Shown here piece by piece: positions 1,606 to 2,031 of a DNA stretch of 64,000 nucleotides. A model generated the notes under the pieces. That model saw only the letters and a program-made list of their open reading frames with translations. It made no database searches and was not told the DNA's origin. This DNA comes from a virus (lineage: Duplodnaviria > Heunggongvirae > Uroviricota > Caudoviricetes), in the IMG/VR virus record IMGVR_UViG_3300045988_151230; one strand, written 5' to 3'. Position numbers and translations under genes: made by a program. The number at the start of each line of letters is the position of its first letter. Positions within the stretch are counted from its first letter, which is position 1.

Positions 1606-1995
1606 CTACATCACGGGACAATCATCAAACTCGCCACTTCTTGCGTCGTTGATAATGTGAGTGATCACACCAAACACGGCATTGCTGCCCGTGCATCCAT
1701 CGTCATCCTTTGGCAATGCTTCCTTCTTACCGGTTCTTAAATCCTCCAGATGCTGACGTGGGTACTTCCGGTATCTTTTTACGCGATATTCCCCATCCAG
1801 AGCGCATACAAGCAGAGAACCATCAACCGGGGTAAGTGAGGAATCGACCACCAGCAATGCACCCTGTAATATTCCCTCACGATGATGACTATCAGCTGCC
1901 CTCATGAAGTAGGTCGCTGAAGGATGTCTAATTATCTGCTGATCAAGAGAAATACGGCTCTCAGCATAATCCGCCGCAGGAGAAGGGAAGCCCAT
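1606..1995 (-). CDS. UmuD'-like (HumD-like) S24-family protein that starts at the position of the UmuD self-cleavage product
   Basis: N-terminus MGFPSPAADY aligns with UmuD from G25 onward; conserved Ser (ADSH) and Lys (RVKR) positions; C-terminal FGVITHIIN resembles UmuD FGVVIHVVK; AAGAGG RBS 8 nt upstream; no umuC partner nearby. Confidence 0.65.
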   Translation of the reverse strand: MGFPSPAADYAESRISLDQQIIRHPSATYFMRAADSHHREGILQGALLVVDSSLTPVDGSLLVCALDGEYRVKRYRKYPRQHLEDLRTGKKEALPKDDDGCTGSNAVFGVITHIINDARSGEFDDCPVM

Positions 1996-2011
1996 AATAC
2001 TCGCCTCTTAA

Positions 2012-2031
2012 TACTGTATACACATACAGTG
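2012..2031. promoter_or_regulatory. LexA (SOS) box TACTGTATACACATACAGTG
   Basis: CTGT-N8-ACAG palindrome 17 bp upstream of the UmuD'-like start codon. Confidence 0.6.

What the first reader, a model, noticed from the sequence alone, without database searches (positions are those of the whole stretch)
1606..2031. SOS-controlled, natively truncated UmuD' homologue without umuC
The ORF starts exactly where UmuD self-cleavage would produce UmuD'. It keeps the Ser/Lys dyad positions and has a 30-aa insertion near the C-terminus. A consensus-like LexA box sits 17 bp upstream. Phage P1 encodes a comparable protein, HumD (from memory). An element-borne, LexA-controlled mutagenesis factor would link induction to host SOS.
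Basis: partly seen in the sequence, partly recalled or inferred. Interest (0 to 1): 0.55.

Follow-up and report, generated by a model that had tools for sequence, protein, structure and literature searches.

The report
Phage-plasmid HumD, a pre-cleaved UmuD'
This is an ordinary copy of humD, the well-known phage P1 gene for a ready-made (already "cleaved") UmuD' mutagenesis subunit under a LexA/SOS operator, here carried by a different kind of E. coli phage-plasmid; it is real but already known and already named in public annotation.

Summary
The ORF at 1606-1995 (minus strand, 129 aa) is a full-length member of the HumD family: NCBIfam NF051876 scores 219.8 bits against a cutoff of 120. It is 118/129 identical to phage P1 HumD and 42% identical to E. 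coli UmuD from Gly25 onward. It starts M-GFPSPAADY, exactly at the UmuD cleavage point. An in-frame TAA five codons upstream excludes a longer form. A LexA box (CACTGTATGTGTATACAGTA, 2031-2012) ends 16 nt before the ATG. Equivalent boxes sit at -34 to -39 in P1, RCS47, D6, N15 and HK639, even where the flanking DNA is unrelated. No UmuC or DinB homologue is in the window. The claimed 30-aa insertion is wrong: there is a 4-residue insertion and a 10-residue C-terminal tail. The window is 100% identical to an E. coli O169:H41 plasmid and colinear with the phage-plasmid Cyrano. Verdict: already known.

Two family-level points may be new. In natively truncated homologues the Ser/Lys dyad has decayed. 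These homologues also carry a conserved acidic tail (EFDDxPV[MI]) that resembles the SSB C-terminal tip.

Separately, the spacer upstream of humD holds an unannotated candidate type I toxin-antitoxin module.

The parts
1606..1995 (-). humD coding sequence, 129 aa plus stop (TAG at 1608-1606). HumD-family pre-cleaved UmuD' analogue.
   Evidence: ORF list. NCBIfam NF051876, 219.8 bits against cutoff 120, residues 1-129 of 129. Pfam Peptidase_S24. PDB UmuD' 1UMU, E = 6.7e-23. 118/129 identical to P1 HumD.
1888..1890 (-). Codon of Ser36, aligned with the UmuD nucleophile Ser60. The surrounding motif is ADSHH instead of GDSM.
   Evidence: Alignments. Across 50%-identity representatives this column is S in only 6 of 38 natively truncated homologues, against 41 of 45 full-length UmuD-like proteins.
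1777..1779 (-). Codon of Lys73, aligned with the UmuD general base Lys97.
   Evidence: Alignments. The column is K in 14 of 38 natively truncated representatives and in 41 of 45 full-length ones.
1609..1638 (-). C-terminal tail, residues 120-129 (SGEFDDCPVM). It is absent from UmuD and conserved in the HumD family.
   Evidence: E122, F123, D124, D125, C126, P127 and V128 are each conserved in 109-118 of 121 sequences; tail variants (GGEFDDTPF, TDEFDEIPCI, SFEFHDNLPF) occur in distant natively truncated homologues; the tail is present in 0 of 45 full-length UmuD-like proteins.
2004..2009 (-). Shine-Dalgarno-like AAGAGG, 8 nt before the ATG.
   Evidence: Read directly from the sequence.
2008..2010 (-). 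In-frame TAA stop five codons upstream of the ATG. It excludes a longer, cleavable UmuD form.
   Evidence: Sequence. The stop-to-stop frame is 1609-2007.
2012..2031 (.). LexA (SOS) box, CACTGTATGTGTATACAGTA as read on the minus strand.
   Evidence: 0 of 100 shuffles give such a match. Boxes lie in the same position in 10 of 11 humD loci examined. LexA sites are annotated in P1 and phiKO2. Close relatives vary only in box position 1 and the central spacer.
2028..2056 (-). Candidate sigma-70 promoter: -35 TTCAAA (2056-2051), 17-nt spacer, -10 TACACT (2033-2028). The -10 overlaps the left edge of the LexA box.
   Evidence: My own scan gives 8 of 12 matches. Relatives have the better -10 TATACT at the same place. 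This is an inference only; the tool's stricter scan did not list it.
1574..1594 (-). Intrinsic terminator after humD: 9-bp stem with 7 G-C pairs, followed by TTTTAT.

Best explanation
The gene is humD, a stand-alone phage or plasmid gene for a UmuD' analogue that is made directly in the 'activated' length.

Proposed mechanism:
- In an undamaged lysogen, host LexA binds the box at 2012-2031. The box overlaps the -10 and start region of a weak promoter and keeps humD off.
- DNA damage activates RecA, LexA cleaves itself, and humD is transcribed as a monocistronic mRNA that ends at the terminator at 1594-1574.
- The HumD dimer then partners with the host's own UmuC and with RecA to give a Pol V-like translesion polymerase. 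This skips the slow RecA-mediated UmuD-to-UmuD' cleavage that normally delays mutagenic bypass.
- The likely benefit is damage tolerance for the roughly 108-kb phage-plasmid and its host during SOS.

Shown here: family membership, native truncation, the operator sequence and its conservation, the absence of umuC on the element, and the near-universal presence of umuC in E. coli.

Inferred: LexA binding to this variant, and partnership with UmuC. The partnership rests on 91% identity to P1 HumD, whose complementation of UmuD' is recorded in the P1 annotation and in the title of McLenigan et al. 1999.
For: - NF051876 'HumD family translesion DNA polymerase' equivalog: 219.8 bits, cutoff 120, full length.
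- 118/129 identity to P1 HumD with no gaps. The P1 record note reads 'functionally complements E. coli UmuD'' and annotates a LexA site shared by lxr and humD.
- 42% identity to E. coli UmuD residues 25-139, and a match to the UmuD' structures.
- The in-frame stop upstream of the start.
- The LexA box: 0 of 100 shuffles match. It is conserved at -34 to -39 in P1, RCS47, D6, N15, HK639, Cyrano, CMS-2020a and PhiR41_1, although the window/Cyrano flank is unrelated to the P1-like flank. It is annotated in phiKO2.
- No UmuC or DinB in the window or in Cyrano. umuC is present in 5423 of 5426 complete E. coli genomes.
- RefSeq names the gene HumD family in a 99.6%-identical plasmid.
Against: - Nothing was tested experimentally for this copy.
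- The promoter is weak and only predicted (8 of 12 matches), and box position 1 is C rather than T.
- From my memory of the McLenigan 1999 abstract (the paper is not held), P1 HumD is poorly expressed and complements well only at high copy number. The physiological role may therefore not be mutagenesis as such.
- The conserved C-terminal tail has no counterpart in UmuD', so it points to an extra or different interaction.
Confidence: 0.85

Rival explanations
1. HumD is mainly a modulator of replication or of the SOS checkpoint, not a mutagenesis subunit. It would act by binding RecA filaments, the beta clamp, Pol III subunits or SSB-interacting proteins, or by forming heterodimers with host UmuD/UmuD'. 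This would help the element's own replisome, or time the host's response.
For: - The family-specific acidic tail EFDDxPV[MI] is absent from every full-length UmuD-like protein examined (0 of 45). It resembles the SSB C-terminal tip MDFDDDIPF.
- The element encodes its own Pol III alpha, an epsilon-like exonuclease, a helicase and a primase.
- In P1, humD sits next to hot, a Pol III theta homologue.
- The catalytic dyad is decayed in the clade.
Against: - P1 HumD, 91% identical, is recorded as complementing UmuD' function.
- No data here show any such binding.
- The AlphaFold model was too poor to say anything about the tail (mean pLDDT 52.8).
Confidence: 0.1
2. HumD is an active S24 protease that acts in trans. 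Having kept Ser36 and Lys73, it would cleave host UmuD, LexA or a phage repressor.
For: - Ser and Lys are both retained in this protein and in P1 HumD.
- UmuD' can cleave UmuD intermolecularly. This rests on established knowledge recalled from McDonald et al. 1998/1999, not on a test here.
Against: - The GDSM motif is ADSHH here.
- Among close family members the Ser column is S 76, T 43, A 2.
- Among 50%-identity representatives only 2 of 38 natively truncated proteins keep both Ser and Lys, against 41 of 45 full-length proteins. The Ser column holds 16 different residues.
- Selection for catalysis is therefore absent in the clade.
Confidence: 0.03
3. The ORF is a decaying remnant of a umuDC operon, a pseudogene fragment left after deletion of the 5' end and of umuC.
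For: It has no umuC partner and no N-terminal arm.
Against: - It has its own Shine-Dalgarno sequence, ATG, LexA box and terminator.
- 561 clusters at 90% identity reach E <= 1e-5. Of the 120 sequences listed, 106 begin with the same MGFPSP start and most are 126-130 aa long.
- A curated equivalog model covers residues 1-129.
- It is conserved across P1-like, N15-like, lambdoid and SSU5-like elements.
Confidence: 0.02

Closest known systems
Bacteriophage P1 HumD (YP_006569.1; McLenigan et al. 1999, J Bacteriol 181:7005)
   Same: - 129 aa, 118/129 identical, no gaps, same MGFPSPAADY start and same C-terminal tail.
- A LexA box lies just upstream (P1: TACTGTATAAATGAACAGTA, 19 nt before the ATG).
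- No umuC on the element.
   Different: - The genomic context differs. In P1 humD lies between lxr/hot and phd-doc. Here it lies between a host-like apbC-metG pair and a spacer holding a candidate type I toxin-antitoxin module, on an SSU5/Cyrano-type siphovirus phage-plasmid.
- The DNA upstream of the box is unrelated to P1's.
- Coding DNA is about 86% identical.
E. coli UmuD / UmuD' (Pol V accessory subunit; PDB 1UMU, 1I4V, 1AY9)
   Same: - S24 fold, 42% identity from UmuD Gly25 to the C-terminus.
- Ser and Lys lie at the dyad positions.
- LexA-boxed promoter (umuDC box TACTGTATATAAAAACAGTA).
   Different: - No 24-residue N-terminal arm and no Cys-Gly cleavage site, so no RecA-mediated activation step.
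- Not in an operon with umuC.
- GDSM is replaced by ADSHH.
- Extra 10-residue acidic C-terminal tail.
- Scores below the cutoff of NCBI's UmuD model (87 against 110).
N15 gp26, phiKO2 gp23 and lambdoid (HK639, HK140) UmuD-like proteins
   Same: - Natively truncated, 126-129 aa, 62-71% identical over the full length including the tail.
- LexA box upstream.
- Carried by temperate phages or phage-plasmids without umuC.
   Different: - Different neighbours: often a divergent dinI (phiKO2, HK140).
- In HK140 humD is the second gene of a small operon and has no box within the 140 nt examined upstream of its ATG.
Plasmid and ICE UmuD homologues MucA, ImpA, RumA, SamA
   Same: Element-borne, SOS-linked S24 accessory subunits for a Y-family polymerase (established knowledge; PMC7092418).
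   Different: Those are full-length, need cleavage, and are co-transcribed with their own polymerase gene (mucB, impB, rumB). This one is pre-cleaved and borrows the host polymerase.

Membership tests
HumD family (NCBIfam NF051876) | Full-length match to the curated equivalog model above its cutoff | tested here: met
   219.8 bits against cutoff 120, residues 1-129 on model positions 1-129.
HumD family (NCBIfam NF051876) | UmuD-type S24 fold and sequence homology | tested here: met
   Pfam PF00717, E = 1.6e-9. PDB UmuD' 1UMU, E = 6.7e-23. BLASTP 42% identity to UmuD residues 25-139.
HumD family (NCBIfam NF051876) | Translation starts at the residue equivalent to UmuD Gly25; no N-terminal arm and no cleavage site | tested here: met
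   M1-G2 aligns with C24-G25. An in-frame TAA lies at 2010-2008. 106 of 120 close homologues start MGFPSP.
HumD family (NCBIfam NF051876) | Stand-alone gene without a cognate umuC on the element | tested here: met
   No UmuC or DinB hit in the 64-kb window. None is annotated in the whole Cyrano genome.
HumD family (NCBIfam NF051876) | LexA operator in the promoter region | tested here: met
   Met at the sequence level only. The box at 2012-2031 has a perfect CTGT-N8-ACAG core and matches 17 of 20 consensus positions. It is conserved in position across 10 of 11 loci. Actual LexA binding is not testable here.
HumD family (NCBIfam NF051876) | Functionally replaces UmuD'; binds UmuC and RecA filaments | not testable with these tools
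   Known only for P1 HumD (P1 record note; McLenigan 1999, cited). Inferred here from 91% identity.
UmuD, autoproteolytic Pol V subunit (NCBIfam NF007621) | Score above the family cutoff; N-terminal arm with Cys/Ala-Gly cleavage site; GDSM Ser with Lys dyad; operon with umuC | tested here: not met
   87 bits against cutoff 110. No arm and no cleavage site. The motif is ADSHH. No umuC.
LexA / phage CI-type repressors (S24 with an N-terminal DNA-binding domain) | N-terminal HTH or winged-helix DNA-binding domain plus a cleavable linker | tested here: not met
   TIGR00498 lexA scores 27.2 bits against cutoff 110.95 and matches only the catalytic-domain part. The protein has no residues N-terminal of the S24 core.

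The most novel reading that the evidence does not exclude
Natively truncated UmuD' proteins (the HumD clade) may not be just 'UmuD minus the arm'.

Across 50%-identity cluster representatives they have let the Ser/Lys dyad decay. Only 2 of 38 keep both residues, against 41 of 45 full-length UmuD-like proteins.

Many of them (12 of 38, against 0 of 45) have gained a conserved C-terminal peptide, x-E-F-D-D-x-P-[VFC]-[MILF]-COOH. Some variants (EFDDTPF, EFHDNLPF) match the SSB C-terminal tip DFDDDIPF almost exactly.

The most novel reading is that this tail is an SSB-Ct mimic. It would dock the HumD-UmuC complex, or HumD alone, onto the SSB-binding pockets of replisome or repair proteins. This could replace targeting functions of the missing UmuD arm, or compete with SSB for its partners.

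I found no mention of this in the held literature. The key HumD papers are not held, so prior description cannot be excluded. The counts also ignore shared ancestry.
Probability: 0.2. Interest if true: 0.5.

Novelty: already known. Interest (0 to 1): 0.14.

Why it matters
For the finding as stated, it matters little. HumD has been characterised in P1 since 1999, has a curated NCBI family model, and occurs in about 14% of complete E. coli genomes (765 of 5426 at megablast level), mostly on phage-plasmids.

This copy does show that the LexA-box-plus-humD cassette moves between unrelated phage-plasmid lineages (P1-like myoviruses, N15-like, lambdoid, and SSU5/Cyrano-like siphoviruses). The operator keeps its position even when the surrounding regulatory DNA is replaced. 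That argues for selection on SOS control.

A widespread, SOS-inducible, pre-activated Pol V subunit on mobile elements is relevant to stress-induced mutagenesis and to the evolution of antibiotic resistance in E. coli.

The family-level observations (dyad decay, SSB-like tail) could give a testable handle on what HumD really does.

Tried and rejected
- McLenigan 1999 and Lobocka 2004 could not be read because they are not held. What I say about HumD expression level and its in vitro binding is from memory.
- A whole-word literature search for 'HumD' returned mostly unrelated papers.
- AlphaFold2 with a 52-sequence alignment gave a poor model (mean pLDDT 52.8). It cannot be used to say whether the tail is disordered, so no fold search was run.
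- Rejected: a full-length UmuD from an upstream start (in-frame TAA).
- Rejected: a 30-aa insertion.
- Rejected: a trans-acting protease role (dyad decay).
- Rejected: a pseudogene remnant.
- I considered that apbC-metG marked a chromosomal junction, with a prophage next to mrp. This is rejected because the pair lies inside complete phage genomes (Cyrano, PhiR41_1) and is only 82.6% identical to the K-12 locus.
- I considered that the LexA box also drives a divergent gene, as with lxr in P1 or dinI in phiKO2. A plus-strand promoter-like site overlaps the box, but no credible ORF follows it. This is left open.
- The sub-threshold Rfam AgrB hit upstream (27.6 bits against a gathering score of 40) has no BLAST similarity to the K-12 dinQ-agrAB locus. 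I do not file the upstream module under dinQ/agrB.

Full report
**What is at the coordinates**

The minus strand carries a 129-aa ORF at 1995 to 1606, with sequence MGFPSPAADYAESRISLDQQIIRHPSATYFMRAADSHHREGILQGALLVVDSSLTPVDGSLLVCALDGEYRVKRYRKYPRQHLEDLRTGKKEALPKDDDGCTGSNAVFGVITHIINDARSGEFDDCPVM.

Reading upstream from the ATG, the features are:
- an AAGAGG Shine-Dalgarno sequence;
- an in-frame TAA at 2010-2008;
- the 20-mer CACTGTATGTGTATACAGTA at 2031-2012.

Downstream lies an intrinsic terminator at 1594-1574. Because of the TAA, the stop-to-stop frame opens only at 2007.

**Homology**

- Pfam finds Peptidase_S24.
- The best PDB matches are E. coli UmuD' and UmuD (1UMU, E = 6.7e-23).
- BLASTP against K-12 UmuD gives 42% identity from Gly25 to the C-terminus. 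Gly2 of the ORF lies on Gly25, the first residue of UmuD'.
- NCBIfam has a dedicated equivalog model, NF051876 'HumD family translesion DNA polymerase'. The ORF matches it end to end at 219.8 bits against a cutoff of 120. It falls below the cutoff of the UmuD model (87 against 110).
- Against phage P1 HumD it is 118/129 identical without gaps.

**The claimed insertion**

The '30-aa insertion' is not there. Relative to UmuD there is one 4-residue insertion (residues 101-104), a 1-residue deletion, and a 10-residue C-terminal extension. Residues ~77-106 are merely divergent.

**The operator**

- CTGT-N8-ACAG occurs twice in the 64-kb window, with 0.9 expected by chance.
- A match within 3 mismatches of the full 20-bp palindrome occurs once, here, and never in 100 shuffles.
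- I compared the 140 nt upstream of humD in eleven loci. Nine of them have a box starting 34-39 nt before the start codon: the window, Cyrano, two further SSU5-type relatives, P1, RCS47, D6, N15 and HK639. phiKO2 has one at -64, annotated as a LexA site shared with a divergent dinI.
- HK140 has no box within 140 nt, because humD there follows another small gene.
- The P1 record annotates its box as a 'LexA binding site in the regulatory region of lxr and humD'.
- Among close SSU5-type relatives, homology to the window breaks exactly at the humD ATG. CMS-2020a (SCU-175) and PhiR41_1 have a P1-like leader, whereas the window and Cyrano have an unrelated one. Every version nonetheless has a LexA box at the same distance.
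- Within the window's own lineage the box varies only at position 1 and in the central spacer.

That pattern is what selection on LexA binding predicts.

A weak promoter can be placed so that its -10 overlaps the box: -35 TTCAAA, 17-nt spacer, -10 TACACT (TATACT in relatives). This is inference only.

**No polymerase partner on the element**

- tblastn and phmmer with E. coli UmuC and DinB find nothing in the window.
- The window is 100% identical to a plasmid record of E. coli O169:H41 F6326-C1.
- It is colinear at about 97-98% identity with the 108-kb phage Cyrano.
- Cyrano is a siphovirus-type phage-plasmid with RepA, ParA/ParB, its own Pol III alpha, RNR, ThyX and cobalamin genes. No Y-family polymerase is annotated in it.
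- The host supplies one: umuC is present in 5423 of 5426 complete E. coli genomes.

**Mechanism**

The best-supported reading is the textbook one for HumD. LexA represses the gene. SOS induction releases it. The product is already the length of UmuD', so it needs no RecA-mediated cleavage, and it works with host UmuC and RecA as a Pol V-like translesion polymerase.

The literature held here supports the outline:
[quoted passage not shown] - The P1 record notes functional complementation of UmuD'.

For this copy, LexA binding and UmuC partnership are inferred and were not shown.

**How common it is**

- At megablast level the gene is in 765 of 5426 complete E. coli genomes, in 692 places on plasmids and 114 on chromosomes.
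- It is in 650 PLSDB plasmids.
- 561 protein clusters at 90% identity reach E <= 1e-5. Most of the 120 listed are 126-130 aa, and many are already named HumD family.

The finding is real, correctly interpreted, and already known.

**Family-level observations that go beyond the finding**

I aligned the best 150 representatives of 50%-identity clusters and split them by the number of residues before the GFPSPA motif.

| Class | Both Ser and Lys kept | Acidic tail present |
|---|---|---|
| Full-length (15 or more residues before the motif) | 41 of 45 | 0 of 45 |
| Natively truncated (Met directly before Gly) | 2 of 38 | 12 of 38 |

- In the truncated class the Ser column holds 16 different residues and the Lys column 7.
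- Even among close relatives the Ser column is S 76, T 43, A 2.
- The dyad that this protein still shows is therefore most likely a vestige. This argues against a trans-protease role.
- The truncated class alone carries the C-terminal peptide x-E-F-D-D-x-P-[VFC]-[MILF]. Here it is SGEFDDCPVM; elsewhere it is GGEFDDTPF, TDEFDEIPCI or SFEFHDNLPF.
- This peptide resembles the SSB C-terminal tip MDFDDDIPF, the docking peptide for many replication and repair proteins.
- These counts ignore shared ancestry, and some metagenomic sequences are frameshifted. They are leads, not tests.
- The AlphaFold model was too poor to help.

**What lies next to it (not part of the finding)**

The roughly 770-bp AT-rich spacer upstream of humD is not empty.

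(a) Positions 2130-2290 (plus strand) are about 84% identical to the E. coli nrdA promoter region, including its DnaA boxes. The fragment points away from humD.

(b) Positions ~2415 to 2324 (minus strand) encode a strongly structured RNA.
- The fold has z = -5.1, and 0 of 200 shuffles fold as well.
- It has a single-stranded 5' part, a hairpin and a terminator.
- Four of its 23 predicted pairs show compensatory changes in Enterobacter and Citrobacter homologues.

(c) Positions 2658-2741 (plus strand) encode a 27-aa hydrophobic peptide, MVNLLFKIVPPMFAIIKAIIEYVNQRP, with a GAGG ribosome-binding site. A terminator follows at 2755-2779.
- In a diverged E. coli plasmid the ORF shows 6 synonymous and 2 non-synonymous changes.
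- Homologues occur in Enterobacter (MVSLLLKILPPLVAIITTIIDYINKR) and Citrobacter (MVTLLLKIVPPIIEIAMAVIDYLNQCL) plasmids.
- It is unannotated in nearly all of 93 plasmid records.
- It matches no Pfam or NCBIfam model.

(d) The 5' part of the RNA is complementary to the peptide mRNA leader: 20 nt including one G-U pair (direct repeat 2391-2410 / 2564-2583). The two copies co-vary between genera.

Together these look like a type I toxin-antitoxin module of the tisB/istR, zorO/orzO or dinQ/agrB architectural kind. There is only a sub-threshold AgrB similarity and no sequence similarity to dinQ-agrAB.

**Verdict**

The novelty class is 'already known' and the interest is low.

The dyad-decay and SSB-like-tail pattern, and the neighbouring candidate toxin-antitoxin module, are the only items that might repay further work.

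Noticed in passing
window 2322-2779 (sRNA about 2415->2324 minus strand; small ORF 2658-2741 plus strand; terminators 2331-2348 and 2755-2779; repeats 2391-2410 and 2564-2583): Candidate unannotated type I toxin-antitoxin module in the spacer upstream of humD.
- It encodes a 27-aa hydrophobic peptide, MVNLLFKIVPPMFAIIKAIIEYVNQRP. Substitutions in a diverged relative are mostly synonymous.
- A divergent, strongly folded small RNA (z = -5.1) has a 5' end complementary to the peptide mRNA leader (20 nt).
- The two complementary copies co-vary in Enterobacter and Citrobacter plasmid homologues.
- No Pfam or NCBIfam family matches. The only Rfam similarity is a sub-threshold AgrB hit.
-.
   Followed up: partly
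window 2130-2290 (+): A stretch about 84% identical to the E. coli K-12 nrdA promoter region (about 253 to 114 nt before the nrdA ATG). It includes the DnaA boxes TTATCCACA and TTATGCACT and faces away from humD. It runs into a bidirectional terminator about 55 nt later. It matches every complete E. coli chromosome at 'ypaB'. P1 also annotates an E. coli-like two-DnaA-box fragment near hot/humD.
   Followed up: partly
window 48451-48470, upstream of ORF 47321-48424 (-): The only other CTGT-N8-ACAG site in the window, TACTGTTTACTTATACAGTG. It lies 26 nt before the ATG of a tyrosine recombinase (Pfam Phage_integrase) and just after a TTGATC-17-TAATAT promoter-like site. It is conserved in Cyrano. 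A convergent HTH regulator gene (46940-47326, +) follows. The recombinase may also be SOS-controlled.
   Followed up: partly
window 1-1568: A host-like divergent apbC(mrp)-metG pair sits inside the phage-plasmid. ApbC is 94.8% identical in protein, and the DNA 82.6% identical, to the K-12 mrp-metG locus. A full methionyl-tRNA synthetase gene is annotated in the relatives Cyrano and PhiR41_1.
   Followed up: partly
window 1996 (humD ATG) and leftward or rightward in relatives L003, L004: Among SSU5-type relatives, homology to the window stops exactly at the humD start codon. CMS-2020a (SCU-175) and PhiR41_1 carry a P1-like leader and box, while the window and Cyrano carry a different leader plus the toxin-antitoxin-like spacer. 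This suggests cassette exchange at the operator.
   Followed up: partly
window 51104-51347 (-): Three tandem tRNA genes. Cyrano annotates Asn, Thr and Ser at the colinear position.
   Followed up: no
window about 15683-16159 (-), computed from record NZ_CP024264.1 49608-50084: RefSeq annotates the element's dihydrofolate reductase as 'trimethoprim-resistant dihydrofolate reductase DfrA51'. It sits in a nucleotide-metabolism block with nrdAB and a thymidylate synthase.
   Followed up: no
source record NZ_CP024264.1: The matching plasmid record is 72,060 bp and marked linear, whereas relatives are circular or complete at 105-117 kb. It ends in a partial CDS. It is probably an incomplete assembly of the phage-plasmid rather than a deletion derivative.
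   Followed up: no
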